DNA of 64,000 nucleotides from Laetmonice hystrix (Eukaryota), in assembly GCA_965235115.1 (NCBI GenBank), contig OZ249436.1, positions 4,404,001 through 4,468,000 of the forward strand, in the 5' to 3' direction. The position numbers and the translations under genes were made by a program. A model generated the notes under the pieces. The model did not search any database, had not been told where the DNA came from, and saw only the letters and a list, made by a program, of their open reading frames with translations. Of this stretch, positions 27,021-63,520 are shown piece after piece. Numbering within the stretch: position 1 is the stretch's first letter; each line of letters starts with the position of its first letter.

Positions 27021-29625
27021 GGTCTGGGGACAGGGTGTACGGGTTAGGGTCAGGGCTAGGGATAGCGATAGGTTGGGGAGTCTGGGGACAGGGTGTTGGG
27101 GGATCTGGGGACAGGGTGTATGGGTTAAGGTCAGGGCTAGGGATAGCGATAGGTTGGGGAGTCTGGGGACAGGATGTATGGGTTAGGGTCAGGGCTAGGG
27201 ATAGCGATAGGTTGGGGAGTCTGGGGACAGGGTGTATGGGTTAGGGTCAGGGCTAGGGATAGCGATAGGTTGGGGAGTCTGGGGACAGGGTGTATGGGTT
27301 AGGGTCAGGGCTAGGGATAGCGATAGGTTGGGGAGTCTGGGGACAGGGTGTATGGGTTAGGGTCAGGGCTAGGGATAGCGATAGGTTGGGGAGTCTGGGG
27401 ACAGGGTGTATGGGTTAGGGTCAGGGCTAGGGATAGCGATAGGTTGGGGAGTCTGGGGACAGGGTGTATGGGTTAGGGTCAGGGCTAGGGATAGCGATAG
27501 GTTGGAGAGTCTGGGGACAGGGTGTATGGGTTAGGGTCAGGGCTAGGGATAGCGATAGGTTGGGGAGTCTGGGGACAGGGTGTATGGGTTAGGGTCAGGG
27601 CTAGGGATAGTGATAGGTTGGGGAGTCTGGGGACAGGGTGTATGGGTTAGGGTCAGGGCTAGGGATAGCGATAGGTTGGGGAGTCTGGGGACAGGGTGTA
27701 TGGGTTAGGTTCAGGGCTAGGGATAGCGATAGGTTGGGGAGTCTGGGGACAGGGTGTATGGGTTAGGGTCAGGGCTAGGGATAGAGATAGGTTGGGGAGT
27801 CTGCATGGGGACAGGATGTATGGGTTAGGGTCAGGGCTAGGGATAGCGACAGGTTGGGGGGTCTGGGGACAGGGTGTATGGGTTAGGGTCAGGGCTAGTG
27901 ATAGCGATAGGTTGGGGAGTCTGGGGACAGGGTGTATGGGTTAGGGTCAGGGCTAGGGATAGAGATAGGTTGGGGAGTCTGGGGACAGGGCGTATGGGTT
28001 AGGGTCAGGGCTAGGGATAGCGATAGGTTGGGGGATCTGGGGACAGGGTGTATGGGTTAGGGTCAGGGCTAGGGATAGCGATAGGTTGGGGAGTCTGGGG
28101 ACAGGGTGTATGGGTTGGGGGATCTGGGGACAGGGTGCACGGGTTAGGGTCAGGGCTATAGGGATAGCGATAGGTTGGGGGATCTGGGGACAGGGTGCAC
28201 GGGTTAGGGTCAGGGCTAGGGATAGAGATAGGTTGGGGAGTCTGGGGACAGGGTGTACGGGTTAGGGTCTGGGCTAGGGATAGCGATAGGTTGGGGAGTC
28301 TGGGGACAGGGTGTATGGGTTAGGGTCAGGGCTAGGGATGGCGATAGGTTGGGGGATCTGGGGACAGGGTGTATGGGTTAGGGTCAGGGCTAGGGATAGT
28401 GATAGGTTGGGGAGTCTGGGGACAGGGTGTATGGGTTAGGGTCAGGGCTAGGGATAGCGATAGGTTGGGGAGTCTGGGGACAGGGTGTATGGGTTAGGGT
28501 CAGGGCTAGGGATAGCGATAGGTTGGGGAGTCTGGGGACAGGGTGTATGGGTTAGGGTCAGGGCTAGGGATAGCGATAGGTTGGGGAGTCTGCATGGGGA
28601 CAGGGTGTATGGGTTAGGGTCAGGGCTAGGGATAGCGATAGGTTGGGGAGTCTGCATGGGGACAGGGTGTATGGGTTAGGGTCAGGGCTAGGGATAGAGA
28701 TAGGTTGGGGGTCTGGGGACAGGGTGTATGGGTTAGGGTCAGGGCTAGGGATAGTGATAGGTTAGGGAGTCTGGGGACAGGGTGTATGGGTTAGGGTCAG
28801 GGCTAGGGATAGAGATAGGTTGGGGGATCTGGGGACAGGGTGCACGGGTTAGGGTCAGGGCTAGGGATAGAGATAGGTTGGGGAGTCTGCATGGGGACAG
28901 GGTGTATGGGTTAGGGTCAGGGCTAGGGATAGCGATAGGTTGGGGAGTCTGGGGACAGGGTGTATGGGTTAGGGTCAGGGCTAGGGATAGCGATAGGTTG
29001 GGGAGTCTGCATGGGGACAGGGTGTATGGGTTAGGGTCAGGGCTAGGGATAGCGATAGGTTGGGGAGTCTGCATGGGGACAGGGTGTACGGGTTAGGGTC
29101 AGGGCTAGGGATAGAGATAGGTTGGGGAGTCTGGGGACAGGGTGTATGGGTTAGGGTCAGGGCTAGGGATAGCGATAGGTTGGGGGATCTGGGGGCAGGG
29201 TGTATGGGTTAGGGTCAGGGCTAGGGATAGCGATAGGTTGGGGAGTCTGGGGACAGGGTGTATGGGTTAGGGTCAGGGCTAGGGATAGCGATAGGTTGGG
29301 GGATCTGGGGGCAGGGTGTATGGGTTAGGGTCAGGGCTAGGGATAGCGATAGGTTGGGGAGTCTGGGGACAGGGTGTATGGGTTAGGGTCAGGGCTAGGG
29401 ATAGCGATAGGTTGGGGAGGGGGTTGGGGACAGGGTGTATGGGTTAGGGTCAGGGCTAGGGATAGCGATAGGTTGGGGAGTCTGGGGACAGGGTGTATGG
29501 GTTAGGGTCAGGGCTAGGGATAGCGATAGGTTGGGGAGTCTGGGGACAGGGTGTATGGGTTAGGGTCAGGGCTAGGGATAGTGATAGGTTGGGGAGCCTG
29601 GGGACAGGGTGTATGGGTTAGGGTT
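27021..29625. repeat. 58-bp G-rich minisatellite with telomere-variant hexamers, ~45 copies
   Basis: Unit GGGTTAGGGTCAGGGCTAGGGATAGCGATAGGTTGGGGAGTCTGGGGACAGGGTGTAT. Confidence 0.97.
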
Positions 29626-40100: not shown

Positions 40101-43100
40101 TTCAGCGGACGACAGGGTGCCACAGGACCGGCGGGGGTTGCAGGCTTCCCAGGAGGACCCGGTCCTGGTGGCAAGTATCTTGATCCTTGCACTGTATTCT
40201 TGCACACCTTTAATAATTACCTTGAAATTACATGATTTTCAAATTGTATTGCTTTTCCACAGGTCGAACCGGATCCACTGGCGCAGTGGGCCCACGAGGT
40301 TTTCCAGGCCCCTCCGGCCCTGGAGGTCGTCCTGGTCAAACTGGATCCACGGGTGCTGCCGGTGCCCGTGGTTTCCCAGGCCCTCAAGGGATTGGACGTC
40401 CTGGTAGTACCGGTGCCACAGGAGCTCGAGGTTTCCCAGGTGGAACAGGTGGACCCGGATTCCCGGGCCGGAGTGGCGCGACTGGCTTCCCAGGGCCTTC
40501 AGGACGACCAGGTACGTTCCTTGTATTGAAATTTATGGAAGTCTCCATTGAAATTGCACCCTGATTAAATTGAATCTGAATAAAATTAAATCTGAATAAA
40601 ATTGAATCTGAGTGGATTGAAAGTTGTATGGTAACACTGATTTGCTTGAAGGACCCTCCGGACCTAGTGGCCTTCCCGGACCCGCAGGTAGACCAGGACA
40701 GATTGGCAGGACAGGAGGTACTGGCGGTCCAGGGTTCCCTGGACCACAAGGAGCGACTGGCTTTGGGGGACGGCCAGGGCAGACTGGTGCGACAGGCTTC
40801 CCAGGGTCTGCCGGCCCAGCAGGACCCCGAGGTTTTCCTGGTAACCAAGGCCGGACAGGGGCAAGTGGTTTCCCAGGACCTTCAGGACCACGTGGTAGCC
40901 CGGGACTGGGTGGACCAGCCGGTAGACCCGGTGCAACTGGCTTCCCAGGACCTGCTGGCCCACTTGGAAGACCAGGTACGCTGTCAATTTGTAGTGGTGA
41001 TGGTGTAGGGATATTTCTTGAAATATTTCAGTTTTGGAATATCCGCTTGGTGCTTTTGTCAAACACTTTAGACTCTTATTTTTAGGACCTGGTGGCCTCC
41101 AGGGACGTTCTGGACGAACTGGGGCTACTGGATTGCCAGGAAGGCAAGGGGGGCCCGGTATAGCTGGTCCAAGGGGATTCCCTGGACCTGCGGGTCCCTT
41201 GGGCTCTCCCGGTAGACAAGGAGGTCCTGGTGTATCTGGACCTACGGGACGGACAGGCGCTACAGGTAGGTGGCTTGTCGCCACAAAATGCTCTCAAAAT
41301 TGTTCACTTGCAAGATGTCGACCTGGTAAATCATTAATACTAAAATTGCTTCTAGGTGCTCGTGGTGGTCCCGGCAGAGTCGGAGCAACTGGCCTCAGTG
41401 GGCCACGTGGTTTCCCAGGAGCAACAGGATTCCCCGGACAAAGTGGGCGGCCAGGAGGTAGCGGAGTACCTGGCGCTAGGGGACTCGACGGCAGACCGGG
41501 TAGGGCAACAAACTATACTCCCGAAATCTTTTCTTCCAAACTTTATCAACCTGTGTTGTGCGACATCCCATTAAATGTTCTAAAAATGACATGTTTAAAA
41601 ATTACATGTGCTGTTGTACATTTAACGTCAACAAGACTACAGGGGTGGGAAAACAATTTTGTTAACTTGAGCTGGATTGGAGACATCCACCTGTTAAGCT
41701 CCACCCTTTTATGCATTTCAGGTCCAAGTGGTCCGGTTGGATTCCCGGGTAGGACAGGAAGTACTGGCGTCCCTGGACCTCGCGGCTTCCAGGGAGGCCC
41801 AGGATCTGCAGGACCTAGAGGCCAGCCTGGCTTCTCGGGTCCAGCTGGGCCTCAAGGAGCAACTGGGCGAAGTGGACCAGCAGGGTTCCCTGGCAGAACT
41901 GGTACGCCTTGAAACTTGATCATGCAGTTTTTCGTTGAAATATGATGTGGCAGTCGTGTCTTATTATTTTAATATCGATTTCAAACAGGTGCGTCGGGAC
42001 AACCCGGTAGAGTTGGCGGCCCAGGGCCGAGCGGTCCAGCTGGACCAAGTGGACGCCCAGGAGGACCAGGTTTTCCAGGACAGACTGGAGCCACGGGGAG
42101 ACCAGGCGTGGCGGGTTTCCAAGGTCGTCCAGGCCCCGCGGGCCCTTCTGGACCACGTGGTTTGGAAGGTGAATGAACTTACCTTTTTTGAAACTTCCTA
42201 ACATTACTTCTCGATGTTTGTTCTAATATGGCTGCCTACGGTCATCTTCGATAATTCGTAATGAGCCGCGTGAGCAGTCTGTCCTTACTGATCTTGAATT
42301 CCCCTTGGGATTGACATGGTAATGTATTTTGAGCAGTCTGTCCTTACTGATCTTGAATTCCCCTTGGGATTGACATGGTAATGTATTTGTACAGGATCAA
42401 CTGGACAACCTGGTAGGCCAGGTGCTGTAGGTTTACCTGGAATACCGGGGCGAGCAGGACGCACTGGTTCAACTGGTTTCCCAGGACCAAGTGGACCCGG
42501 GGGACTTCCAGGTCCCCGGGGTTTCCCAGGTCCCCAAGGCAATGCAGGAGGTCCGGGTAGAGCAGGAGCGACGGGTCTGTTCGGTCCGACTGGCAGGACT
42601 GGCGCGACTGGTGCACGTGGATTTCGAGGGGTCGATGGTGCAACCGGACCGTCGGGTGTGCCCGGATTCCGTGGAGGACCTGGACCTTCGGGAAGGCCCG
42701 GAGGTCCGGGGGCGACGGGACAACCAGGACCAAGGGGTTTCCAAGGCTCCCCAGGGTCGCCAGGAGCTCCTGGAATCGGGAGAACTGGTATGTTTGATTC
42801 ACGCTTCGTTTAAACGGCCCGAAATAAAGTGGAAATTAGTTATAACGCAGGTTTTATATGGCCTCAATAATTGGGGGCAGGGGCATAATCTAAATGTTTT
42901 TCATGCTTATTAGAAATTACCTCTAAAAATGACTCCTGCAGGTGCAACGGGATTCGCGGGTAGGCCTGGATCAGCAGGTCCTGTAGGACCTCCAGGTAGT
43001 ACGGGTCAACCAGGTTTCCCAGGTTCACTGGGACCGGCCGGTCCTCAGGGAGCTACAGGTAGACCAGGATTGTCTGGTCCTCCCGGGTTCGGACAACCCG

Positions 43101-48659: not shown

Positions 48660-51600
48660 ATGGCGCTCATGTTTACAGCCACAGCAAAGTAAGTTTCATG
48701 GCAATCATTTACCGGTAGTATCAGGGGTTATACGTGAATTCATGGTTTCAGTGTCGATCGTTTAGACGTAGGTATACAGGGCCGATTGACGTTTTGCAAC
48801 TGCGTATTGATGAATTAACTTATTATCGCCCACGAACACAGCCACAACTCGCTGTCTCAGTCTCACCCTGTCACTGCCACTGGCCAGTCACGTCGGCCTG
48901 ATTAGGCCATGGGGCAATTTGTTGCATTCGACGCGTTGCATGGCGTTTTTGGCGGAAATTTAGTGAATTGCCTTCCAGTATTGCAGTACATTTTTAGGGT
49001 TTTTGCACAAGGCAGACATTCCTCACGCTGGTATCAATGCCAACAAATGGGACACGAGTTCGAACCCTTCTAATCTAGGGATTTATCTTTTTCTACCGTT
49101 ATTTTGCCTGTATTGAATTCGTTTATGGATTAGGCCTAGGGGTATTTTCTTTCGGATATTGGGTTAGATAGCGGTTAGGGTTAGTGTTAGTGTTTAAAGT
49201 TTGAGGAATGTCTGCCCTGCGCCCAAGCTTTAGGGCCGTAGCCCGTAGACAATCTTGGAATTTTGGAGGGGAAGGGCTTACCTACTAGAACTGCTCTGCA
49301 CTACTGCAGTGGCAGTACTTAGCACATTCGGGAATCCTCGGCCATATCTTCGAAAGTAGCCTCGGGTGAAATAGGCGCCATGTTAAGCATTGCATCGCGG
49401 GTACATTTAGCTGGGACTCTCGCTAGCATGGCAGTGCTTGCAGTATTTTGCCTGCATCAGGCATGAAAGCAACTAAAATAGGCCTCCAGTGTTTTCCCCA
49501 TAGTCAGTGGGCAATATTACGAGAGTATCATGTTCATGAGACAAGTAGTCGTACCATCTGTCGTGGTGCTGTCGTTCATGGGCGCCGCCATATTGCTTCC
49601 CATAATTTGATAAATTACCGTATCACGCCCATTTAGGTAAATTAGGTAATTGATATTTCAGTTCAAACGTTCCCCTTCATGCCACAAAATATATATTTGC
49701 ACATACAATGCCAAGAAGCCGGTTTCAATAAATATATATACACTACTTTCTGGCTCGATGGGATATGACGGTTCACTCAGTGCCTCGCTACACAGGTCGA
49801 TTTGGCCATGTATCTGGTTGCCAATGGCGCCCATTTCACCCGAGGGTATATGCAGATATGACGTCATATGCCCGAGGGAATCCCGAATGTACTTAGCAGT
49901 ACACTAGGCTTATTAAGGTCTCACCATGGACCGGTAATCAATGTATCCAACCCAAACCCATTACATATCAATACAATGACTTTCAATACAAAGAAAAAGT
50001 ATTTTTGATGTAAAAAAATGTTTAGATATCTCAGGGTTTCTGCCAGAGGGTAAAATGGGTAAAATTCCGTACCCTAAAATTTTTCCAGGGTACGGATCCC
50101 TACCCTCAAAATCGTTGGGTAGTCTCGAGTTGGAAACCCCATAACAGGCGCAGGGAACTACCATCTCAAAAAGCTGTGGCGTGGATGATGCATGGTTCAG
50201 ATGACTGGACTTCATAGGCCATTATAGTGGTCAACCATAATGTTGTTCCATTGTCTCACTCGACTGTATATGTTGGGGGAATCTTATCTTCATTTATTAC
50301 TGGTCTTTTGTTAGTTCCTGTTGTAATACTCCAACAAATCACATGTACATTTCATGTATACCCTTTAGATAGCACAGCTGTCAAAAAGCAATAATGTTGG
50401 ATGAGTTTTCTTTCCTTTGTAGCATTAAGAAAGCAGTGGCATTGCTGAATGGACTGCATGACACAAAATTTCCACGCTTGTTATCCAGGATCGTGCAGAA
50501 ACTACATCTAAAGGTAAGTGACAAGTAACAAACAGCTATGTAATGTTGAAAAACAACTTTAGCTGGTGAATGTTATTATTGGTATTATTCCACCAGTTAA
50601 ATTGGATCACAAATTTTGAACTGTAATGTTGCATGGAAGTAGGTGTTTTCAATAACACCATCAGAGAGTTGCAGTAGTTTTACAGTGACGTACCAGGGTG
50701 AGCTGCTGCAATGTGTAGCTCACCTTGTTCTGTATTGTCAGGATGAGTCAGAGAGTTGCAGTAGTTTTACAGTGATGTACCAGGGCGAGCTGCTGCAATG
50801 TGTAGCTCACCTTGTTCTGTATTGTCAGGATGAGTCAGAGAGTTGCAGTAGTTTTACAGTGACGTACCAGGGTGAGCTGCTGCAATGTGTAGCTCACCTT
50901 GTTCTGTATTGTCAGGATGAGTCAGAGAGTTGCAGTACCGTAGTTTTACAATGATGCACCAGGGTGAGCTGCTGCAATGTGTAGCTCACCTTGTTCTGTA
51001 TCGTCAGGATGAGTCAGAGAGTTGCAGTAGTTTTATAGTGATGTACCAGGGTGAGCTGCTGCAATGTGTAGCTCACCTTGTTCTGTATTGTCAGGATGAG
51101 TCAGAGAGTTACAGTAATTTTACAGTGATGTACCAGGGCGAGCTGCTGCAAGGTGTAGATCACTTTGTTCTGTATTGTCAGGATGAGTCAGAGAGTTGCA
51201 GTAGTTTTACAGTGATGTACCAGGGTGAGCTGCGAGCTGCTGCAATGTGTAGATCACTTTGTTCTGTATTGTCAGGATGAAAGGACTTTCAGTGAGAAAG
51301 AAGAGGAGATATTAGAAGATGTCCTTGAATTGAGTAGCAGTGACCTCGAGCTGGTTCTTGAGGCCTGTGAGTTCTTCCTACATCAAGCAGCCTATCATTC
51401 AGCCAAACCCACTGTACTTGGCCAGCAGCTGCAGCAACTCGGCCTAGACGACTCCAAGGTTTGTCATTCAGAACTACTTCGTAATTTTTCTAGAATTTCG
51501 CAGATCAAAGGAGAGGATTGGACAGATATTAATTTAAAGGGAGCCGTAAAATTCATTTTTTCGATTTATGGCAGTCTTAGAAACATATGATTCGCATTCC

Positions 51601-54600
51601 TTGGACTCCCAGTAACATCATGTGAGACTGTTATGGCCCAACGACCAGTATTTAGAAAGGAAAACATGCGGTATTTAGGTCAACGCTAGACTAGAGGGAG
51701 ATTCCCTTCCACACCCGGAAGTCACGTGATCACGCGTCATCATCGCCCGACCGCGGCCAACTCAAATATCCTGTGGGCCGCTCGCTAATTCTGAGCTACG
51801 TATTTGCGAGAGATTTGGCATATTTTCCTTACTAAATACTGGTCGCTGGGCCATAACAGTCTCACATGATGTTACTGGGAGTCCAAGGTATGCGAATCAT
51901 ATGTTTCTAACTTAATCTAAGACTGCCATAAATCGAAAAAATGAATTTTACGGCTCCCTTTAAGAAACGATGTTGCTGTAAGCAGTAGTCTAAGATCATA
52001 TTTACAAAGAGGCTGACTTGAAATAAAAAGAGGCTGACTTGAAATCCTTTTTTATAGTACTTGCTATTTAGAGCAGCCAGAATACTTTTTTTTTTTTTAA
52101 TTGACCATCTTTCAACAGGAGTAACCACTCGGCTATATCTGCTGTTACAAATGTTATGTGGACTTCTTATTATAGGTAGGCTAATTTGTGAGAGACAGGG
52201 AATTAAAGGGGGCTGCCATACTGCCCAGTTTCTAGGCTGTTGAATGCTACAATCTATCTATTGACATGATTTAGCCTGTTTGTATTGTTCAGTGTTCATC
52301 TGGCCCGTTTTATTCAGGTGAGTGTACTTACTGAGGCCTGGGCAGGCAGTGCGAGAGAGGTTGTAGAAAGGTTACGCCGGAGGACACTGGCCCCCAAACA
52401 GGTAGGCTACAGATACAAGCTGTTGGCCTTGGCCTCACAATGAAATCATCAACTTTAACATAGGCACATTATTCAAAAACACTGTGAATTCTTACATCTT
52501 GGGCTAGAATTATGTTTCTTTTTGAACATTTCACGAGGCCCTGATAAACTGGTCAGATTTAAATATATTCTACAATACAGGACATGTTTACCTTTACTTA
52601 TGTGAAAGAAACAATATTTACAACTCAGTATTAAATCTTAGAATCAAACATGCAAAGTGTATGTTTTGGGAAAGGAATCTAGGTCAACTAGAACTCGGTG
52701 TGAGAGTAAAGAGAAACTCTTGTGGCCACTGGCACGGATTTTGTGTTCTGACCTGCAGCTGGAGACAGTTAATTGGCGCCTGAACCTTCAGATGGCGCAA
52801 TCATCGCAAGCCAAGCTGAAGCAGCCGAACGCCATGTTGGAGCTCGGAATCCGAGATGAGGATGGAGAGGTATTTTTCTTTTGAAATGCGCGGGCATCAG
52901 GGGTAACCCTATTACTTTGACAATGTCCCTAAAGAGAAAAGTTGTATAGTCCTCTACAGGAATCGAACCCCGGCCCCAAGATTACTGCACCCATTCGCAT
53001 AGCATAAGGTGTCGACATCCATGCCAGCTAGGCTTTAACAGTGGCTCTGGGAGGGCTTCTTGTCTCAGCTTTACCCCCTCCTCCCCACATCACCACACCA
53101 AATTTTTTATATGAAAGGACAAGAAACGAAACTATTTTTTTTTTTGGCCTTACTGGGGTATGTACAAAAACCAGTAGAAATGAAGTAATTGTCAATGTTA
53201 CCAAAATTATGACAGGTGAAATTTTAACAAAAAATTTGAAGAAGTAATTTCATTGAAATGCAGGCTGGTGATCCATAGTTCTGTGTCTTCCTTCAATAAT
53301 GATTACACGTCATGATTAATTTTGACTTTGATTTAATTGCAGGGAAATCAGCAGGTCCGAATGGAATTCACTCATGACGAACTGTACCGATTTTATGAAC
53401 AGGTAATTTCAACACTCAGTTAAACAGGGGACCTCTCTTTCAACACTCAGTTAAACAGGGGACCTCTCTCTCAACACTCAGTTAAACAGGGGACCTCTCT
53501 CTCAACACTCAGTTAAACAGGGGACCTCTCTCTCAACACTCAGTTAAACAGGGGACCTCTCTCTCAACCCTCAGTTAAACGGGGACCTCTCTCTCAACAC
53601 TCAGTTAAACAGGGGACCTCTCTCTCAACACTCAGTTAAACGGGGACCTCTCTCTCAACACTCAGTTAAACAGGGGACCTCTCTCTCAACACTCAGTTAA
53701 ACAGGGGACCTCTCTCTCAACACTCTGTTAAACAGGGGACCTCTCTCTCAACACTCAGTTAAACAGGGGACCCCTCTCTCAACACTCAGTTAAACAGGGG
53801 ACCTCTCTCTCAACACTCAGTTAAACAGGGGACCTCTCTCTCAACACTCAGTTAAACAGGGGACCTCTCTCTCAACACTCAGTTAAACAGGGGACCTCTC
53901 TCTCAACACTCAGTTAAACAGGGGACCTCTCTCCCAACACTCAGTTAAACAGGGGACCTCTGTCTCAACACTCAGTTAAACAGGGGACCTCTCTCCCAAC
54001 ACTCAGTTAAACAGGGGACCTCTCTCTCAACACTCAGTTAAACAGCTAGGAGACCTCTCTCTCAACACTCAGTTAAACAGGGGACCTCTCTCTCAACACT
54101 CAGTTAAACAGGGGACCTCTCTCTCAACACTCAGTTAAACAGGGGACCTCTCTCTAAACACTCAGTTAAACAGGGGACCTCTTTCTCAACACTCAGTTGG
54201 ACAGGGGACCTCTCTCCCAACACTCAGTTAAACAGGGGACCCCTCTCTCAACACTCAGTTAAACAGGGGACCTCTCTCTCAACACCCAGTTTAACAGGGG
54301 ACCTCTCTCTCAACACTCAGTTAAACAGGGGACCTCTCTCTCAACACTCAGTTAAACAGGGGACCTCTCTCTCAACACTCAGTTAAACAGGGGACCTCTC
54401 TCTCAACACTCAGTTAAACAGCTAGGGGACCTCTCTCAACACTCAGTTAAACAGGGGACCTCTCTCTAAAACACTCAGTTAAACAGGGGACCTCTCTCTC
54501 AGGGTTTGTCAGCCAAGGTCACACGTACATGACCTCAGTAACAGTCACTTAAGTAAGATGATAGTACATTTATGATCTGGCTGTAGAAACTTTGTGAGAA

Positions 54601-55521
54601 TTCAGTTTAAAAATAAAGTTACATGTACATGTGGACGTGGTAGACGTATATTAGATGTTAACAGAAAAAAAGACATTCCAGACCTTTTCTTGAATTAGAG
54701 TAATGATCAACAGACAAGTTGAAGTGTATGAGGTTTCTAGTTTATATAAACGTGTTTACATGCCTCAAGACTGGAGAATCTCAGTTATAATCTGTTTGCT
54801 GTTTTCTGGCCAACATGATGATGTCCTGAGACCTGATAGCATACATTAAGTTAACATGTTATTGTCTTCACCACGACGGCTAGTCGACAGTGGTGACTGG
54901 TATGTGATAGGTGAATTCAGCAGTTTTACATCGGTTTCAGTGTGATAGGTGAATTCAGCGGTTTTACATCGGTTTCAGTGTGATAGGTGAATTCAGCAGT
55001 TTTACATCGGTTTCAGTGTGATAGGTGAATTCAGCAGTTTTACATCGGTTTCAGTGTGGTAGGTGAATTCAGCAGTTTTACATCGGTTTCAGTGTGATAG
55101 GTGAATTCAGCAGTTTTACATTGGTTTCAGTGTGATAGGTGAATTCAGCAGTTTTACATCGGTTTCAGTGTGATAGGTGAATTCAGCAGTTTTACATCGG
55201 TTTCAGTGTGATAGGTGAATTCAGCAGTTTTACATCGGTTTCAGTGTGATAGGTGAATTCAGCAGTTTTACATCGGTTTCAGTGTGATAGGTGAATTCAG
55301 CAGTTTTACATCGGTTTCAGTGTGATAGGTGAATTCAGCAGTTTTACATCGGTTTCAGTGTGATAGGTGAATTTAGCAGTTTTACATCGGTTTCAGTGTG
55401 ATAGGTGAATTCAGCAGTTTTACATCGGTTTCAATGTGATAGGTGAATTCAGCAGTTTTACATCGGTTTCTCTTTCTTACAGCTGGAAACGGTACAGAAA
55501 CAGTTGGATTCGTTGAGTTGA
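48660..55521 (+). CDS. COMMD10: COMM domain-containing protein 10 (Commander/CCC complex subunit), 198 aa
   Basis: Exons 48660-48688, 50423-50513, 51276-51458, 52318-52401, 52759-52869, 53343-53402, 55483-55521; all introns GT-AG and phase-consistent (597 nt). Protein [51 protein letters not shown]...[30 protein letters not shown]...[25 protein letters not shown] matches the COMMD10 sequence as I recall it (FPRLLxRIxQKLHLK; WxLNLQMA; LETxQxQLDSL). Confidence 0.95.
49005..49222. mobile_element. Intronic MITE-like element with 21-bp TIRs
   Basis: GCACAAGGCAGACATTCCTCA ... TGAGGAATGTCTGCCCTGCGC (19/21 match); internal GGTTAGGGTTAGTGTTAG. Confidence 0.65.
50661..51280. repeat. 87-bp tandem repeat x7 that includes the COMMD10 exon-3 splice acceptor
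   Basis: Each unit ends TTGTTCTGTAT(T/C)GTCAG|GATGA. Confidence 0.95.
51538..51959. mobile_element. Kolobok-type non-autonomous DNA transposon (TTAA TSD, AG...CT ends, ~130-bp TIRs)
   Basis: TTAA|AGGGAGCCGTAAAATTCATTTTTTCGATTTATGGCAGTCTTAG ... CTAAGACTGCCATAAATCGAAAAAATGAATTTTACGGCTCCCT|TTAA. Confidence 0.85.
52925..53030 (-). mobile_element. Possible tRNA-derived SINE head remnant
   Basis: Pol III B-box GGTTCGATTCC on the minus strand (GGAATCGAACC at ~52959). No full cloverleaf seen; boundaries approximate. Confidence 0.35.
53409..54500. repeat. 31-bp intronic minisatellite, ~35 copies
   Basis: Unit CAACACTCAGTTAAACAGGGGACCTCTCTCT; begins ~6 nt after the exon-6 donor. Confidence 0.97.
54903..55470. 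repeat. 38-bp intronic minisatellite, ~15 copies
   Basis: Unit TGTGATAGGTGAATTCAGCAGTTTTACATCGGTTTCAG; ends 12 nt before COMMD10 exon 7. Confidence 0.97.
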
Positions 55522-56081
55522 AGGTATCTTACGCCAGTTTGTTTTACTCGAATGGTAAATGTTTTTTGAACCAGGGCCGTGTGCAAGGATTTAAATGTAT
55601 TTGACTATGTATAAGCCTAAAGGGTACAATGTTATGATAAAGTGTCATATTATGTTGTAAATAATGACGTCAGCAAAATAATCCATGAACCATCGTACAT
55701 TCCTTGTTTGTCACAATGCTGTCACATGGCGAATAGGTCACCTATTCGTGCACCCAACGTGAACACTTAGTTCAAGAGAGTTGTCATTTACAATATGTCA
55801 AAAACAATATACATCAATATACGTATCTGTTTACATCGTTACTACACTCTTTGAAATGTAAAGGATTTGGGGTGATGGACCTAACGACTGATATTGAGTG
55901 GTTTGAAACATTTCAGATACAGACCTGTAATTAAGGGGAATCCTTCATAGGAAATAAAATCATGTTAAATGCCACTTGAAGCTTATTGCGCTTGGTTCAG
56001 TTATTTGTAGAAGTAATATACACCTATCAGTTCAGTCCGAAAGGCAATGCCAGGCCCGGTTACTGAGAATGAGCTTATTAA

Positions 56082-56239
56082 CCACTTGCCGGCGGGATTA
56101 ATGTTTAATTATCTGACCCCTGGTCGGGTTAATTCTGTAAATTACATGTATTTTAATGCAATTTTTTGCGTATATACGTCATCCGTTAGAATGGAAGGTT
56201 CAATGCATGCGTATATACACGTCATCCGCCGGGAAGTGG
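56082..56239. mobile_element. piggyBac-type MITE (TTAA TSD, CC...GG ends)
   Basis: TTAA|CCACTTGCCGGCGG ... CCGCCGGGAAGTGG|TTAA (13/14 TIR match). Confidence 0.75.
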
Positions 56240-56275
56240 TTAATACCATTACATGTAAGTTCTCAAGTTCCCCTG

Positions 56276-56428
56276 GGGTGCGTTTCAATAAAGCCCAAAG
56301 ATATCTTTGAAAGCTTCACTGGAGCCAGGTTCGAGGGTTTTATTCAAACACTCGCTCTCTCCCCATCCAGACTGCACTAGTCCAAAGATATCTTTGGCAA
56401 AGATATCTTTTGATATTAAAACGCACTC
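56276..56428. mobile_element. PIF/Harbinger-type MITE (3-bp CTG TSD)
   Basis: CTG|GGGTGCGTTTCAATA ... TATTAAAACGCACTC|CTG, with internal CAAAGATATCTTTG palindromes. Confidence 0.6.
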
Positions 56429-56444
56429 CTGGAGCCTCCACTGC

Positions 56445-57130
56445 GTAATCCCTACTTTCCGGACATGAGTCTGGCCAGGTAATGTTCGTATTCTATGGCC
56501 AGTAATCCCTACTTTCCGGACATAGGTCCGGCCAGGTAATGTTCGTATTCTATGACCAGTAATGCCTACTTTCCGGACATGGGTCCGGCCAGGTAATGTT
56601 CGTATTCTATGACCAGTAATCCCTACTTTCCGGACATGGGTCTGGCCAGGTAATGTTCGTATTCTATGACCAGTAATGCCTACTTTCCGGACATGGGTCC
56701 GGCCAGGTAATGTTCGTATTCTATGGCCAGTAATCCCTACTTTACGGACATGGGTCCGGCCAGGTAATGTTCGTATTCTATGGCCAGTAATCCCTACTTT
56801 ACGGACATGGGTCCGGCCAGGTAATGTTCGTATTCTATGGCCAGTAATCCCTACTTTACGGACATGGGTCCGGCCAGGTAATGTTCGTATTCTATGACCA
56901 GTAATCCCTACTTTCCGGACATGGGTCTGGCCAGGTAATGTTCGTATTCTATGGCCAGTAATCCCTACTTTCCGGACATGGGTCTGGCCAGGTAATGTTC
57001 GTATTCTATGACCAGTAATGCCTACTTTCCGGACATGGGTCCGGCCAGGTAATGTTCGTATTCTATGACCAGTAATCCCTACTTTCCGGACATGGGTCCG
57101 GCCAGGTAATGTTGATAGTCTATGGCCAGT
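56445..57130. repeat. 57-bp tandem repeat x12 overlapping the stop codon of the minus-strand gene
   Basis: Unit GTAATCCCTACTTTCCGGACATGGGTCCGGCCAGGTAATGTTCGTATTCTATG(G/A)CCA. Confidence 0.96.
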
Positions 57131-60100
57131 TTAAGTTTGCCCTTCCTCCGTAACGTCCGCAAGTAGTCGAAGGCAGCGCGTTCCTCTGCGTTGGTAATGT
57201 TGAGTTGTTGATAGAGAAACTTGAGTCCCTCCCGGCGAGCATTCTCCTGTGTCAGGGTCGCGTTGGCCTTGGCGAGGGAAGTTATCAGGGCAGCCTGACT
57301 CCCGGCATTCTTGAGAATCTGGTTACTTTCATTATCAATCTCTTTGACCTGAGGGAGGAGTACAATGTAGAAGGACAGGTCTCAGAATTGCCGCAATAAG
57401 TAGGCCTACACACATGCAACGTTTAGAACGCTTGCAATCAAATTTGAAGTGATGTGAGATAAATGAGAAATTCAAAGAAACATATAAAATCATAAAAAAA
57501 GAAGTAAGAAGGACGACATTTTTTACCTCTTTGTCTGTCAGTTTTCGAAGTGTGATTGCTTCCTGTAAAAGTTTGGCCTGGAAGTTACGTTCCTGGAGGA
57601 CGAGAGCCCGGAGGAAGCGTCCATCCAACTCTTTCGGGATGGCAATCCAGGCGAGCTGCACGTATCGGACGTCAGCGAACAACCCCCAGTCAGACTCCAC
57701 ACACTGACTGTACGGCTTACACAGGTCGGCGCATGGGGCTGGCAAACACAACCACAAACACACACACTGACTGTACGACTTACACAGGTTGACACATGGG
57801 GCTGGCAAACACAACCACAAACACACACTGACTGTACGGCTTACACAGGTTGACACATGGGGCTGGCAAACACAACCACAAACACACACACTGACTGTAC
57901 GACTTACACAGGTTGGCGCATGGGGCTGGCAAACACAACCACAAACACACACACTGACGGTACGACTTACACAGGTTGGCGCATGGGGCTGGCAAACACA
58001 ACCACAAACACACACTGACTGTACGGCTTACACAGGTTGGCGCATGGGGCTGGCAAACACAACCACAAACACACACACTGACTGTACGACTTACACAGGT
58101 TGGCGCATGGGGCTGGCAAACACAACCACAAACACACACACTGACTGTACGGCTTACACAGGTTGGCGCATGGGGCTGGCAAACACAACCACAAACACAC
58201 ACTGACTGTACGGCTTACACAGGTTGGCGCATGGGGCTGGCAAACACAACCACAAACACACACTGACTGTACGGCTTACACAGGTTGACACATGGGGCTG
58301 GCAAACACAACCACAAACACACACACTGACTGTACGACTTACACAGGTTGGCACATGGGGCTGGCAAACACAACCACAAACACACACACTGTACGGCTTA
58401 CACAGGTTGGCACATGGGGCTGGCAAACACAACCACAAACACACACACTGTACGGCTTACACAGGTTGACACATGGGGCTGGCAAACACAACCACAAACA
58501 CACACACTGACTGTACGACTTACACAGGTTGACACATGGGGCTGGCAAACACAACCACAAACACACACACTGTACGGCTTACACAGGTTGGCGCATGGGG
58601 CTGGCAAACACAACCACAAACACACACACTGTACGGCTTACACAGGTTGACACATGGGGCTGGCAAACACAACCACAAACACACACACTGTACGGCTTAC
58701 ACAGGTTGGCGCATGGGGCTGGCAAACACAACCACAAACACACACACTGACTGTACGACTTACACAGGTTGGCGCATGGGGCTGGCAAACACTACCACAA
58801 ACACACACTGACTGTACGGCTTACACACCCAGACACATGGGGCTGGCAAACACAACCACAAACACACACACTGTACGGCTTACACAGGTTGACACATGGG
58901 GCTGGCAAACACAACCACAAACACACACACTGTACGGCTTACACAGGTTGACACATGGGGCTGGCAAACACAACCACAAACACACACTGACTGTACGGCT
59001 TACACAGGTTGACACATGGGGCTGGCAAACACAACCACAAACACACACACTGACTGTACGGCTTACACAGGTTGACACATGGGGCTGGCAAACACAACCA
59101 CAAACACACACACTGACTGTACGACCTACACAGGTTGACACATGGGGCTGGCAAACACAACCACAAACACACACTGACTGTACGGCATACACAGGTCGGC
59201 GCATGGGGCTGGCAAACACAACCACAAACACACACTGACTGTACGGCTTACACAGGTTGGCGCATGGGGCTGGCAAACACAACCACAAACACACACTGAC
59301 TGTACGGCTTACACACCCAGACACATGGGGCTGGCAAACACAACCACAAACACACACACTGACTGTACGGCTTACAACTTATCTCAAAACTTTTTGAAAA
59401 GATTATGCATTCAAGAATCTATACTTTCCTCAGCCTTCATAATTACCTGTATGATTTTCAATTCGGATTCCGTAAAAAACATTCGACTGAGTTAGCCCTT
59501 ATTGCTCTTAATCATTTCATCACGTCTGCCTTTGATAAAAACCAAATAGTGTTGGGCATATTTCTAGATTTTAGCAAAGCATTCGATACGGTTAATTTCC
59601 AAATTCTTCTGGACAAATTACATTATTATGGTATTAGAGGGACACCTTTGAAATGGTTAGATAATTATTTAAGAAATCGTACTCAGTATATCTCATTCAA
59701 TAACGCCCTCTCTTGTGAAAGTTTTACTAAAATGGGAGTGCCCCAGGGATCTATTTTGGGCCCACTTTTGTTCTTAATATATATAAATGACTTCTTTAAA
59801 GTCTCTACGGAAATTACTCCTATAATGTATGCTGACGACAGTAGCCCGTTTCTCTGTGGTTCAAATCTTGATTCCCTTGTGAAAACAGCGAACATTGAAT
59901 TGGTTAATATATGCGAATGGTTGAAAGCCAATAAGTTATCTTTAAACATAAAAAAGACTAAATATATGATTTTCTCCAAGAGGTTGAAACACCAAGATCC
60001 TTCTTGTCAACTTGTGATCAGCAACTTACCAATTGAACGTGTTACTGAATTCAAATTCTTAGGTTACATGATTGATGAGCATCTGACCTGGAAATCCCAT

Positions 60101-63100
60101 ATAACCTACATATCAAACAAAATATCAAAGATGCTAGGAATCTTTATTAAACTTAGAAAAGTTCTTAACGTAGCTACTCTTAGGAATTTATACTTTTCTT
60201 TCATATATTCATACTTCAAAAACGGTATAGTGGTATGGGGATCGACGGCCGAAACCCATCTGTACATCCTCAAAAAGTGCCAAAAACGTGCCATTAGGGT
60301 TATCACATCATCGCATAAATGTGCACATACTGAACTTCTTTTTAAAGAGTTAAACATACAAACTCTAAGTGTTATGTACAAGTACCAAGTTGCTATTCTC
60401 ATGTACAAAGTTCACCAGTCCTTACTCCCCCAGGTTATATTAAATCTTTTTGAAAGGGTAGAATATGATAGAACTAGGCAAAAACATCATTTCAAATGAC
60501 CGAATACTAATACTTTATCCTTAGAGAGATCCATTATAATTCAGGGACCAAAACTTTATAATTCATTGTTACATGTAATAGATTTTGACGCATCTTTATC
60601 CTCTTTCAAGAAGCTTACCTCTAATTTTCTAGAATTATAACATTTATGTTGTCACTTCAATTGTTGTTAAATGTGAGATCTCTGAGTATCAAAAGCTCTG
60701 TTATTTTATACTCAGCTTCTGTTTTTCTGAAATAGTTTATTTCCTTTATTTTTAATGTGTGTATCATTTGGCCAGCCACATATTTTTCGAGACCCGATAG
60801 TTCTCTACTCAGACATATAAGTCATTTTCTGACTTCGTTCTGTTCTGCGGATCTGTTCCTGTAATTCTGTGTTTCTGTGGAAATAAACAAACAAACAAAC
60901 AAACAAACAAACAAACAAACACAGGTTGACACATGGGGCTGGCAAACACAACCACAAACACACACTGACTGTACGGCTTACACAGGTTGGCGCATGGGGC
61001 TGGCAAACACAACCACAAACACACACTGACTGTACGGCTTACACAGGTTGACACATGGGGCTGGCAAACACAACCACAAACACACACTGACTGTACGGCT
61101 TACACAGGTTGGCGCATGGGGCTGGCAAACACAACCACAAACACACACTGACTGTACGGCTTACACAGGTCGGCGCATGGGGCTGGCAAACACAACCACA
61201 AACACACACTGACTGTACGGCTTACACAGGTTGACACATGGGGCTGGCAAACACAACCACAAACACACACACTGACTGTACGGCTTACACAGGTTGACAC
61301 ATGGGGCTGGCAAACACAACCACAAACACACACTGACTGTACGGCTTACACACCCAGACACATGGGGCTGGCAAACACAACCACAAACACACACACTGAC
61401 TGTACGGCTTACACAGGTTGACACATGGGGCTGGCAAACACAACCACAAACACACACACTGACTGTACGACTTACACAGGTTGACACATGGGGCTGGCAA
61501 ACACAACCACAAACACACACTGACTGTACCGCTTACACAGGTTGACACATGGGGCTGGCAAACACAACCACAAACACACACTGACTGTACGACTTACACA
61601 GGTTGACGCATGGGGCTGGCAAACACAACCACAAACACACACTGACTGTACGGCTTACACAGGTTGGCGCATGGGGCTGGCAAACACAACCACGAACACA
61701 CACACTGACTGTACGACTTACACAGGTTGGCGCATGGGGCTGGCAAACACAACCACAATTTGCACAAACTCTTTTATATACAATAGGCTATGTATATAGG
61801 TTTTGGTGCTGTGAATTGAAATACTTGTATTTACCATAGTATTTACCGAGACATGATTGTGCTAAAAGTATATACATGAAACAAATGACAATGATTGAAA
61901 TGTTTTTTACTGTATGTTTCAGTTTATAAGATGGAAACATTTGGTGGTGAACTATCAAACGTTTTTTGGTTTACCAGAAGTGGGAGTGCCGCATCCCTTC
62001 TCACAGCATTTTCCACCCAACCGTTCACGAACGGCCTTGAACAGCGCCTTCTCAACCTTGGTCCGTTCTCGGATGTACTCGCGGGTTGAGAAAATTATTG
62101 CTGTGTTCTGAAATGAAGATATGATCTGTAGATCCTCTGTCTGTAGAACGAGAATTATCCTCTTAAAAAGACAATTAATAAGAATAAACCTGTTGGCGCA
62201 TATTTAACTAAAGGGAACTTGCATATACACTATAAACCTCCCTATGCTATTCGCAAACTCAGACTCCCGGGGGATAGTTTAACCCGATGCAACATTGCTG
62301 ATAGTCCACCTTCATAGCATCCAGCGCGCTCGCGTAGAGGATATTCCTGTAGGCCAGGTCAAAGTTGTTGTGCAGTTCACGGAGTTGATGGGGACGCAGA
62401 AAGTACCGAACGTAAACGGTTATTCCAATCTGACCAATGAATAGAAAATAACACTGATACAACTTCAAGACTGCAAAAAAAAATCACGACAATGCCTAAT
62501 ACCAGAGATATACTTAGAGATGAAGGACTTGCAGTATTTGGAACATAATTTTGACGTAGGCCAGCTATAATCTTGATCATTATTATAGTAGATTTATGTC
62601 TGTCACCTATTGCATAAGGATACCGCGTCCGCTATTTCTTACATGAAATGATAACCGTCTACACCACAAAGAGCTTGCCAGTATTGCTAATGCATGGTGT
62701 GCCGTTCTTTTATAAATAAGCTTGTCACACTTGTGGCTTGCCATTCGTAGAGCGTCAAACTTGTGGCTTGCCACTCGCAGAGCGTCAAACTTGTGGCTTG
62801 CCACTCGCAGAGTGTCAAGCTTGTGGCATGCCGCTCGTAGAGCGTCAAACTTGTGGCTTGCCACTCGTAGTGTCAAACATGTGGCTTGCCACTCGTAGAG
62901 CGTCAAACTTGTGGTTTGCCACGCGTAGAGTGTCAAACTTGTGGTTTGCCACGCGTAGAGTGTCAAACTTGTGGCTTGCCATTCGCAGAGTGTCAAACTT
63001 GTGGCTTGCCACTCGTTGAGCGCAAACTTGTGGCTTGCCACTCGTTGAGCGTCAAACTTGTGGCTTGCCACTCGTAGTGCCAAACTTGTGGTTTGCCACG

Positions 63101-63520
63101 CGTAGAGTGTCAAACTTGTGGCTTGCCACTCGCAGAGTGTCAAACTTGTGGCTTGCCACTCGTGGAGTGTCAAAAACTTGTGGCTTGCCACTCGCGGAGT
63201 GTCAAACTTGTGGCTTGCCACTCGCAGAGTGTCAAACTTGTGGCTTGCCACTCGTGGAGTGTCAAACTTGTGGCTTGCCACTCGTGGAATGTCAAACTTG
63301 TGGCTTGCCACTCGTAGAGTGTCAAACTTGTGGCTTGCCACTCGTGGAGTCTTACCTGGAGTCGGTCTTTCGTAGCAATCTTAATTCCCCGGAACTGCTC
63401 ATTGTGCGAGTAGGCCCGGAACAATTTGAATTCCTTGTCAGGACCAATCAGATACCTCCCTGTAAAGTAAACCTTACTCGTGTCCACGGCCCCAGTCGTC
63501 CGGCTACGTATGAAACCCAT
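57079..63520 (-). CDS. SPFH/band-7 (prohibitin-homology)-like protein, 5' exon(s) probably outside the window
   Basis: Phase-consistent GT-AG exons: 63520-63356 (MGFIRSRTTGAVDTSKVYFTGRYLIGP...TKDRLQ), 62429-62310 (IGITVYVRYFLRP...SALDAMK), 62107-61975 (NTAIIFSTREYIRERTKVEKALFKAVRERLGGKCC...), 57738-57527 (PCADLCKPYSQCVESDWGLFADVRYVQLAWIAIP...KLTDKE), 57348-57079 (VKEIDNESNQILKNAGSQAALITSLAKANA...AGPMSGK*). The motif order followed by an Ala/Glu-rich coiled coil is typical of SPFH proteins; family assigned by recognition, not HMM. The first exon is preceded by an AG acceptor. Confidence 0.8.
59377..60920 (+). mobile_element. 5'-truncated non-LTR retrotransposon (CR1/L2 group), RT-coding 3' part with (AAAC)n tail
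   Basis: Begins mid-ORF2 (LISKLFEKIMHSR), continues through a 3' UTR to AATAAA at 60882 and an (AAAC)n tail ending at 60920. Flanks join in register with the host repeat unit, sharing ACA microhomology. Confidence 0.93.
59405..60499 (+). pseudogene. LINE reverse transcriptase ORF2 fragment (no endonuclease, probable premature stop)
   Basis: Motifs QFGFR, FLDFSKAFDTV, GVPQGSILGPLLFLIYIND, YADD and KFLG. After the TGA at 60497 the frame continues PNTNTLSLERSIIIQGPKLYNSL...FKKL, resembling the normal ORF2 C-terminus. Confidence 0.88.
62730..63350. repeat. 30-bp intronic minisatellite, ~21 copies
   Basis: Unit GTCAAACTTGTGGCTTGCCACTCG(T/C)AGAG(T/C); abuts the minus-strand donor at 63355. Confidence 0.96.

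What the first reader, a model, noticed from the sequence alone, without database searches (positions are those of the whole stretch)
50661..63355. Recurring theme: tandem arrays nucleate on gene-structure boundaries
Seen: in two adjacent genes all six large arrays either contain a boundary (acceptor 51275, stop codon 57079, acceptor 57739) or end within ~12 nt of one (53402, 55483, 63356). Inference: either a mutational process linked to transcription, splicing or chromatin boundaries, or selection that tolerates boundary-spanning duplications because one intact exon copy always survives. Either way it is a route to intron expansion and to new micro-exons or introns, related to the tandem-duplication model of intron gain.
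Basis: inference. Interest (0 to 1): 0.7.

Follow-up and report, generated by a model that had tools for sequence, protein, structure and literature searches.

The report
Minisatellites straddling exon boundaries ("mirages")
In a genome crowded with locally made tandem repeats, several repeat arrays in two neighbouring genes copy or touch splice sites and a stop codon, which is a known kind of repeat and is explained here mostly by very short original introns rather than by boundaries attracting repeats.

Summary
The genes are COMMD10 (+) and an SPFH/Band-7 gene (-). Three arrays copy a boundary in every unit: acceptor plus 5 nt of exon, acceptor plus 41 nt of exon, and the last 16 codons plus the stop. 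Three arrays stop 5-12 nt short of a splice junction.

This kind is already described: "mirage" minisatellites in amphioxus, and human F7, CBS and LMNB2.

"Nucleation on boundaries" is not supported.
- Arrays cover 8-34% of 364 kb sampled, and most lie away from any recognised gene.
- The non-array parts of the affected introns are only 57-419 nt.
- A null that duplicates a unit-length piece anywhere in such an intron predicts 7.9 boundary hits among 31 intronic arrays in seven genes; 11 were seen (P=0.09).
- In introns with more than 450 nt of unique sequence, 0 of 16 arrays were near a junction.

Intron expansion is shown: paralogous introns measure 221 and 4236 nt.

Two things remain open: a small excess of arrays that just abut junctions (6 against 1.9 expected), and an array at the stop codon of all four SPFH paralogs.

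The parts
48660..48688 (+). COMMD10 exon 1 (MALMFTATA..)
   Evidence: Pattern scan. The spliced 198-aa reading frame is collinear with P0007 and others.
50423..50513 (+). COMMD10 exon 2
   Evidence: AG/GT junctions; collinear with homologues.
50661..51280 (+). Array A1, 87 nt x 7. Each unit carries the acceptor TTGTCAG plus GATGA, the first 5 nt of exon 3. This is a spanning ('mirage') array.
   Evidence: Unit table: 7 of 7 units keep the acceptor. The unit is found only at this locus in the genome.
51276..51458 (+). COMMD10 exon 3 (HN domain)
   Evidence: Pfam COMM_HN, E=6.6e-10.
52318..52401 (+). COMMD10 exon 4
52759..52869 (+). COMMD10 exon 5 (COMM domain)
   Evidence: Pfam COMM_domain, E=5.8e-11.
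53343..53402 (+). COMMD10 exon 6
53409..54501 (+). Array A2, 31 nt x 35. It starts at intron position +7, right after the donor GTAATT (abutting).
   Evidence: No significant similarity to the exon or donor (p=0.24). Locus-specific.
54903..55470 (+). Array A3, 38 nt x 15. It ends 12 nt before exon 7, leaving only tctttcttacag (abutting).
   Evidence: No similarity to the exon (p=0.93). Locus-specific.
55483..55521 (+). COMMD10 exon 7, coding part with stop
56445..57130 (-). Array A4, 57 nt x 12. The unit is the last 16 codons of the SPFH gene, plus TAG, plus 6 nt.
   Evidence: Unit table: 12 of 12 units keep TAG, and the gene-proximal unit differs from all the others at 3 positions. The C-terminus is homologous to P0010 and P0018. 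Locus-specific.
57079..57348 (-). SPFH-A last exon with stop
   Evidence: 83 relatives, and the alignment runs to the end of 333-aa proteins..
57527..57738 (-). SPFH-A exon 4 in the numbering (fifth coding exon)
   Evidence: The PCADLCKPYSQC stretch is conserved in P0017 and P0018.
57698..59376 (-). Array A5, 59-63 nt x 27. The unit is about 22 nt of intron, the acceptor CCAG, and the first 41 nt of exon 4.
   Evidence: 27 of 27 units keep CCAG|CCCCATG. Matches occur only at this locus.
59377..60918 (+). 5'-truncated non-LTR retrotransposon fragment with an (AAAC)n tail, inserted into the array
   Evidence: RVT_1, E=1.3e-29; tail at 60881-60921.
60919..61758 (-). Array A6, the distal half of the A5 array (61-63 nt x 14)
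   Evidence: 14 of 14 units keep the acceptor copy.
61975..62107 (-). SPFH-A exon 3
62310..62429 (-). SPFH-A exon 2
62723..63350 (-). Array A7, 30 nt x 21. It begins 5 nt after the exon end, directly behind the donor GTAAG (abutting).
   Evidence: No significant similarity to the exon (p=0.35). Locus-specific.
63356..63520 (-). SPFH-A exon 1. The transmembrane exon 0 lies beyond the window and ends at 64875 in window-like coordinates.
39843..39935 (+). Small array (17 nt x 5.5) in a collagen/VWA gene, starting 2 nt after an exon end (39840)
42271..42388 (+). Perfect 2-copy 59-nt duplication ending 6 nt before a collagen exon (starts 42395)
   Evidence: A contig of run X4 joins 42166/42393 (GT..AG, cut +2), which is exactly this intron removed.

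Best explanation
The arrays are locally generated minisatellites in a genome that makes them at a very high rate.

Inferred mechanism: short tandem duplications of 15-95 nt arise more or less anywhere, by replication slippage or unequal exchange, and are then amplified by unequal crossing-over. Duplications inside coding exons are removed by selection. Duplications inside introns are neutral. Duplications that straddle a splice junction or the stop codon are also tolerated, because the outermost copy keeps the intact exon, splice site or stop.

Shown: the original introns of these genes were very short. Only 57-419 nt of non-array sequence remains in the affected introns, and a unit is a large fraction of such an intron. 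Geometry alone therefore puts roughly half of the arrays in short introns (7.2 of 15 expected) on or next to a junction, and about a quarter of all 31 intronic arrays (7.9 expected). Arrays that include a boundary are 'mirage'-type minisatellites. Also shown: intron expansion of up to about 20-fold, and a 3' UTR made of copies of the C-terminal coding segment.

Inferred: the pseudo-acceptors are presumably ignored because only the last copy is followed at exon-like distance by a donor (exon definition).
For: (1) Each of the six unit families matches only its own locus in the 627-Mb assembly. The arrays are therefore made in place, not carried by transposons.

(2) Large arrays (200 nt or more, period 10 or more) cover 34% of a 264-kb block around the window, and 8.5% and 21% of two 50-kb blocks elsewhere. 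92 of about 111 large arrays lie outside the annotated genes. Their ends show a strong splice motif in the intron-containing orientation within 0-12 nt at 2 of 184 ends, against 4 in the wrong orientation.

(3) Under the uniform-duplication null, over 31 intronic arrays in 7 genes: 5 spanning seen against 5.95 expected; 11 spanning or abutting against 7.87 expected (P=0.087). Introns with at most 450 nt of unique sequence: 11 of 15. Introns with more than 450 nt: 0 of 16.

(4) The exon parts inside the units are ancestral coding sequence. PCADLCKPYSQC and LAIDYQHYLAGPMSGK align with homologues from other species.

(5) Paralogous introns show the unexpanded state. Intron 4 is 221 nt in SPFH-D and 4236 nt in SPFH-A, of which 216 nt is unique. 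Intron 2 is 2172 nt in D with 75 nt unique.

(6) The same structures are in print: 'mirages' in amphioxus (PMC3087553, passages) and human F7, CBS, LMNB2 and PDGF (PMC1557585, passages).
Against: Arrays that stop 0-12 nt short of a junction are more frequent than the null predicts: 6 seen, 1.93 expected, P=0.008 over all genes. The excess is driven by the discovery genes (3 against 0.45). In the other genes it is 3 against 1.48, P=0.17.

Within short introns the total is also somewhat high (11 against 7.2, P=0.03).

All four SPFH paralogs carry an array that copies the C-terminal codons and stop. None of COMMD10, GalT, IRK or bHLH does. That is far from random unless it is one inherited event.

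All five spanning intronic arrays are at acceptors and none at donors.

The null assumes that the unit length equals the length of the first duplication. Exon models rest on homology, with transcript-like evidence for one collagen intron only. The sample is 364 kb of a 627-Mb genome, and four of the seven genes are paralogs.
Confidence: 0.65

Rival explanations
1. Boundaries are true mutational hotspots. Something tied to splice junctions or transcript ends (nucleosome edges, co-transcriptional nicking, U1-bound donor-like motifs) raises the rate of tandem-duplication breakpoints within about 10 nt of junctions and stops.
For: There is an excess of abutting arrays: 6 against 1.93 expected, P=0.008. 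Gaps are 2, 2, 5, 6, 6 and 12 nt.

All four SPFH paralogs have arrays at the stop, with different units (57, 34, about 71 and 19 nt). A repeat junction lies 6-8 nt behind the stop in each.

The stop is embedded in a donor-like motif in 3 of 4 paralogs: 8.1, 7.1 and 5.4 bits, against 4.8-12.2 bits for real donors here.
Against: The excess is not significant outside the discovery genes (3 against 1.48, P=0.17). Arrays in long introns: 0 of 16 near a junction, including 10 arrays in a PP1-like gene, none closer than 79 nt. 92 arrays outside the annotated genes show no splice-motif spike, though this scan detects only about half of real sites. Stops of three unrelated single-exon genes are 601-3002 nt from any array. 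The shared junction 6-8 nt behind the stop is more simply explained as one inherited array that was later remodelled.
Confidence: 0.15
2. Erosion ratchet. Arrays arise anywhere in an intron. Deletions at the unstable array edges then remove the unique DNA between the array and the nearest junction, until selection on the core splice signal stops them. Old arrays therefore end up abutting donor hexamers or polypyrimidine tracts.
For: Abutting arrays leave just the core signals: GTAATT, GTAAG, tctttcttacag, and AG alone in SPFH-C intron 1. The far edges of two arrays run into degenerate unit remnants (p=0.035 and 0.052).
Against: The perfect, presumably very young, 2-copy duplication in the collagen gene already lies 6 nt from its acceptor. 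The opposite flanks keep 55-308 nt of unique DNA (401 nt lie between the two arrays of COMMD10 intron 6). No direct evidence of deletions was found.
Confidence: 0.1
3. Pure coincidence plus selection after the fact by the reader. Nothing beyond geometry, including the abutting excess and the stop-codon arrays.
For: The replication set matches expectation (6 against 5.87). The total over all genes has P=0.087.
Against: The abutting class has P=0.008. Stop-codon arrays are in 4 of 4 paralogs and in 0 of 4 other genes checked.
Confidence: 0.08
4. The exon models or the assembly are wrong, so the coincidences are artefacts.
For: No RNA could be laid on these two genes. Arrays are hard to assemble.
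Against: The spliced reading frames are complete, all junctions are AG/GT, and exon lengths are identical in four paralogs (165, 120, 133 or 124, 212 nt) and collinear with homologues from other species. One predicted collagen intron is removed exactly in a contig of run X4.
Confidence: 0.02

Closest known systems
'Mirage' minisatellites of amphioxus (Adh3, globins BflGb6 and BflGb9, and other loci). Source: PMC3087553, passages read; the original Adh3 paper, Canestro et al. 2002, was not held.
   Same: Tandem arrays whose units comprise the end of an intron plus the start of an exon, or an exon end. There can be several per gene. Unit lengths are tens to about 160 nt. AG/GT signals are repeated in the units. 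The boundary unit is excluded from homogenisation; here the first A4 unit differs from all 11 others. The authors proposed them as a route to intron gain.
   Different: The taxon differs. The best COMMD10 and PP1 hits are annelids and molluscs, and no near-identical Branchiostoma protein appeared, so this is probably a lophotrochozoan. Here mirages also cover stop codons. Somatic or allelic instability and normal splicing were shown in amphioxus but could not be tested here.
Human VNTRs whose first monomer spans an exon-intron boundary: F7 IVS7 (37 bp), CBS, LMNB2, PDGF, and an interferon-induced gene. Source: PMC1557585, passages read.
   Same: The authentic splice site is reiterated in every repeat unit, and the outermost copy is the functional one.
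   Different: The human cases named there are donor-side. Here all five spanning intronic arrays are acceptor-side. Usage of the pseudo-sites is unknown here.
Intron gain by tandem duplication of an AGGT-containing segment (Rogers model; Hellsten et al. 2011, PMC3265369, seen in a search listing only) and 'OVERMEGA' megasatellites that overlap exon-intron junctions (bioRxiv 10.1101/2021.07.19.452908, passages read).
   Same: Tandem duplication across gene-structure boundaries acts as a source of new gene structure.
   Different: No new intron or exon is demonstrated here. The arrays enlarge existing introns and a 3' UTR.

Membership tests
Mirage-type minisatellite (array spanning a gene-structure boundary) | Head-to-tail tandem array with a minisatellite-size unit | tested here: met
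   TRF periods of 30-87 nt, 7-35 copies, 90-98% matches.
Mirage-type minisatellite (array spanning a gene-structure boundary) | Units contain a copy of the authentic junction: intron end plus splice site plus exon start, or exon end | tested here: met
   Met for A1 (acceptor plus 5 nt), A5/A6 (acceptor plus 41 nt; 41 of 41 units) and A4 (16 codons plus stop; 12 of 12 units). Also met for SPFH-B intron 2, C intron 2, D intron 3 and the stop-codon arrays of B, C and D.
Mirage-type minisatellite (array spanning a gene-structure boundary) | The same feature, tested for the three abutting arrays A2, A3 and A7 | tested here: not met
   These arrays end 5-12 nt from the junction. Local alignment of the exon and splice signal against the units is no better than shuffles (p=0.24, 0.93, 0.35). 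They are ordinary intronic minisatellites next to a junction.
Mirage-type minisatellite (array spanning a gene-structure boundary) | Normal splicing uses the authentic copy and the pseudo-sites are silent | not testable with these tools
   No run on record as RNA was listed.
Mirage-type minisatellite (array spanning a gene-structure boundary) | Copy-number instability between alleles | not tested
   Short-read contigs break at the repeats.
Intron gain by tandem duplication (Rogers model) | A new intron bounded by duplicated proto-splice sites, absent in relatives | tested here: not met
   All intron positions holding arrays in the SPFH genes are shared by the four paralogs. The arrays enlarge old introns, and no novel intron position was seen.
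COMMD10 (COMM domain-containing protein 10) | HN domain plus C-terminal COMM domain, about 200 aa, collinear with named COMMD10 proteins | tested here: met
   PF21672 and PF07258 hits. 60-73% identity to proteins named COMMD10-like. Spliced reading frame of 198 aa.
SPFH / Band 7 family | Band_7 domain (PF01145) behind an N-terminal membrane anchor | tested here: inconclusive
   Single exons of the window gene gave no Pfam hit. Its full-length relatives P0010, P0017, P0018 and P0037 hit PF01145 (E=8.7e-6 to 8.9e-10) and align along the whole gene. The joined protein itself was not scanned.

The most novel reading that the evidence does not exclude
Splice junctions and the stop codon of the SPFH genes are real hotspots for tandem-duplication breakpoints in this genome. 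On this reading, the arrays that stop 2-12 nt from junctions, and the arrays with four different units at the stop codons of four paralogs (each with a repeat junction 6-8 nt behind the stop, which in three of them lies inside a donor-like motif), reflect a site-specific mutational process linked to splice-site-like sequence or chromatin boundaries. Such a process would continuously seed intron expansion and in-frame pseudo-exons. All four independent acceptor-spanning units (the 93-nt array of paralogs B and C counted once) are multiples of 3 nt.
Probability: 0.15. Interest if true: 0.7.

Novelty: new member of a known kind. Interest (0 to 1): 0.4.

Why it matters
The locus shows, within one gene cluster, how minisatellite birth in short introns can enlarge an intron about 20-fold. 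It also shows how it can fill an intron or a 3' UTR with intact copies of splice acceptors, coding segments and stop codons.

In the papers found by four full-text searches, boundary-spanning minisatellites are described in amphioxus and in a few human genes. Finding at least nine such arrays in five genes within 60 kb of a probable lophotrochozoan suggests the phenomenon follows minisatellite load, not lineage.

It removes most of the apparent attraction to boundaries and says what a genome-wide test must control for.

The four paralogs, with expanded and unexpanded versions of the same introns, are a ready-made system for asking how a spliceosome picks one acceptor among 41 identical ones.

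Tried and rejected
- RNA evidence: no RNA holder was listed for 50400-58000. It gave one intron-less contig in X4 and nothing about array polymorphism.
A planned 2-Mb test was therefore reduced to 364 kb including the window.
- Pfam scans of 545 stop-to-stop reading frames found few further genes: GalT, IRK, bHLH, PP1-like and a weak TMEM65 hit. Most arrays therefore could not be assigned to genes, and unrecognised small-exon genes may exist.
- A word-index search with exon 57527-57736 found nothing.
- I tested whether the abutting arrays A2, A3 and A7 are hidden spanners. The result was negative. By-eye matches such as AACAG next to A2 or GACTCCA next to A7 were dropped as too flexible.
- The splice-motif scan at array ends uses consensus frequencies I recalled. 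It detects only about 45-50% of the real sites here, so its negative result is weak.
- The search of earlier findings held nothing for this genome.
- The original mirage paper (PMC117041) is not held.
- Cluster look-up of the SPFH relatives gave no names.
Full report
WHAT IS THERE

The window is G000:C1:4404001-4468000 of a 627-Mb assembly in 35 contigs. The region 48.6-65 kb holds two convergent genes.

The plus-strand gene is COMMD10. It has COMM_HN and COMM_domain hits and 60-73% identity to COMMD10 of annelids and molluscs over one exon. Seven coding exons splice with AG/GT into a 198-aa protein collinear with P0001-3 and P0007.

The minus-strand gene encodes a membrane-anchored SPFH/Band-7 protein. 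Its last exon finds 83 relatives, and the alignments run to the very end of proteins of about 333 aa. Four of those relatives hit PF01145. Six exons splice into a complete frame.

Upstream lies a collagen/VWA/EGF gene at 37.6-46.4 kb. The first 37 kb gave no Pfam hit and holds about 20 further large arrays.

THE OBSERVATION

TRF lists seven arrays between 50661 and 63355. Two share one unit and are separated by a 5'-truncated reverse-transcriptase element with an (AAAC)n tail. All six boundary coordinates are right.

Three arrays contain a boundary in every unit:
- A1 (87 nt x 7): the acceptor TTGTCAG plus 5 nt of exon. 7 of 7 units are intact.
- A5/A6 (59-63 nt): about 22 nt of intron, CCAG, and 41 nt of exon. 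41 of 41 units keep CCAG|CCCCATG.
- A4 (57 nt x 12): the last 16 codons, TAG and 6 nt. 12 of 12 units keep the stop. The gene-proximal unit differs from all the others at three positions.

The copied exon parts are ancestral coding sequence, conserved in relatives from other species.

Three arrays only abut a junction:
- A2 starts at intron position +7.
- A7 starts 5 nt after the exon end.
- A3 ends 12 nt before the exon.
Their units show no significant similarity to the neighbouring exon or splice signal.

All six unit families match only their own locus in the assembly, so the arrays were made in place.

IS IT MORE THAN CHANCE?

I built two nulls for arrays in introns.

If an array is a point insertion that may not touch an exon, the five intronic arrays of the finding are very unlikely (expected 0.51 of 5). 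That null forbids what is actually observed, namely spanning arrays.

The second null removes the arrays. It then duplicates a segment of unit length uniformly anywhere that overlaps the remaining 'ancestral' intron. Those introns are short: 147, 419, 298 and 216 nt of non-array sequence in the finding's introns. This null expects 1.75 of 5 (P=0.003), for a pattern that was selected after being seen.

REPLICATION

The SPFH gene turned out to be the first of four tandem paralogs (A-D) with identical exon structure. They are 47-83% identical. I also used the collagen gene's five small arrays. A PP1-like gene 15.6 Mb away was mapped with annelid and mollusc relatives.

Results under the second null:

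| Set | n | Seen | Expected | P |
|---|---|---|---|---|
| All intronic arrays, seven genes: spanning | 31 | 5 | 5.95 | - |
| All intronic arrays, seven genes: abutting (gap 0-12 nt) | 31 | 6 | 1.93 | 0.008 |
| All intronic arrays, seven genes: total | 31 | 11 | 7.87 | 0.087 |
| Introns with at most 450 nt of unique sequence | 15 | 11 | 7.2 | 0.03 |
| Introns with more than 450 nt of unique sequence | 16 | 0 | 0.65 | 1.0 |

The ten arrays of the PP1-like gene are all in the long-intron class, and none lies closer than 79 nt to a junction.

Outside genes, large arrays cover 34%, 8.5% and 21% of the three sampled blocks. For 92 large arrays outside the annotated genes, strong splice motifs in the orientation that would place the array in an intron occur within 0-12 nt of 2 of 184 ends, against 4 in the wrong orientation. 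This scan is weak: its frequencies are recalled, and it detects about half of the real sites here.

The stops of three single-exon genes (GalT, IRK, bHLH) are 3002, 656 and 601 nt from the nearest array.

INTERPRETATION

Boundaries are not needed for arrays to form, and they do not attract arrays where introns are long. Spanning arrays occur at the rate expected if duplications fall at random and are tolerated when they straddle a junction.

Intron expansion is shown directly by paralogous introns:
- Intron 4 is 221 nt in D, 1068 nt in B, 1248 nt in C and 4236 nt in A (216 nt unique in A).
- Intron 2 is 570-926 nt in A-C and 2172 nt in D (75 nt unique).
- Intron 1 is 243 nt in D and 1549 nt in C (116 nt unique).

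New exons or introns are not shown. All intron positions with arrays are shared by the paralogs.

WHAT REMAINS UNEXPLAINED

First, the abutting class is in excess. The excess is carried mainly by the discovery genes; in the other genes it is 3 against 1.48, P=0.17.

Second, all four SPFH paralogs have an array that copies their own C-terminal codons and stop. The units are 57, 34, about 71 and 19 nt, and a repeat junction lies 6-8 nt behind the stop in each. I read the shared junction as a sign of one old array that was remodelled in each copy. Recurrent births at a hotspot are not excluded. The stop lies in a donor-like motif in three of the four paralogs.

Third, all five spanning intronic arrays are at acceptors. 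The four independent ones have unit lengths of 87, 63, 93 and 69 nt, all multiples of three. The D, B and proximal A5 units are open in frame. That would soften leaky use of pseudo-acceptors. It is a count made after the fact (1/81 by chance), and half of the non-spanning periods are also multiples of three.

COMPARISON WITH WHAT IS KNOWN

Tandem repeats spanning exon-intron boundaries were named 'mirages' in amphioxus Adh3 and were found in amphioxus globin genes. There the units also repeat AG/GT signals, the boundary copies escape homogenisation, and the authors proposed a route to intron gain on the Rogers model (PMC3087553, passages). The original 2002 paper was not held.

Human F7, CBS, LMNB2, PDGF and an interferon-induced gene have minisatellites whose first monomer spans the exon-intron boundary (PMC1557585, passages). 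Vertebrate megasatellites that overlap junctions are also described (bioRxiv 10.1101/2021.07.19.452908, passages).

My four full-text searches turned up no genome-wide test of boundary enrichment for minisatellites and no report from lophotrochozoans. The library lacks most subscription journals, so this is not proof of absence.

VERDICT

The structures are new members of a known kind, mirage-type and ordinary intronic minisatellites. The idea that arrays nucleate on boundaries is not supported by the replication data. Tolerance plus short ancestral introns in a minisatellite-rich genome is the best explanation (confidence 0.65). A boundary-linked mutational bias keeps about 0.15.

Noticed in passing
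window-like coordinates 57079-101484 (window plus L001-L004; C1:4461079-4505484): Tandem cluster of four SPFH/Band-7 paralogs on the minus strand with identical exon lengths. Each has an array that copies its own C-terminal codons and stop. The units are 57, 34, about 71 and 19 nt, with a repeat junction 6-8 nt behind the stop in all four.
   Followed up: partly
L002 (window-like 79705-80169) and L003 (88257-88720): Paralogs B and C are 96.6% identical over 465 nt covering the 93-nt array plus exon 2. Their other exons are 72-90% identical and their other introns do not align. This looks like a gene-conversion tract centred on the array.
   Followed up: partly
stop codons at 57079-81 and, window-like, 85240-42 and 97096-98: The stop codon sits inside a donor-like motif in three of the four paralogs: AAA|GTAGGG, GAA|GTAAGG and GAA|GTGAGT, scoring 5.4-8.1 bits against 4.8-12.2 bits for real donors. 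Paralog B lacks it.
   Followed up: partly
window 59377-60918: A non-LTR retrotransposon fragment is inserted in the A5/A6 array. The 59-nt unit variant occurs only in the proximal half (7 spacings in A5, none in A6), so the two halves have turned over separately since the insertion.
   Followed up: partly
L004, window-like 101490-101753: A 97-nt x 2.7 array ends 5 nt upstream of the ATG of paralog D, possibly next to an acceptor (tatag|A).
   Followed up: no
window 42166/42393: A 227-nt contig of run X4 lacks exactly the predicted collagen intron (GT..AG), as a spliced transcript would. X4 may therefore be an RNA library although it is not recorded as one. It also held 35% of the sampled words of 50400-58000.
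   Followed up: no
window 51538-51962 (COMMD10 intron 3): By eye: two inverted arms of about 130 nt facing each other around a GC-rich core, like a MITE or foldback element.
   Followed up: no
window 27095-29624: A 58-nt minisatellite (2.5 kb) whose unit is built of degenerate GGGTTA/TTAGGG telomere-like hexamers, 4.4 Mb from the contig start.
   Followed up: no
window 9653-9991: (TTC)113 microsatellite, 94% pure.
   Followed up: no
window 40033-40072: Contigs of runs X1 and X2 'go back 40' inside a collagen G-X-Y exon. This may be an allelic tandem duplication in coding repeats.
   Followed up: no
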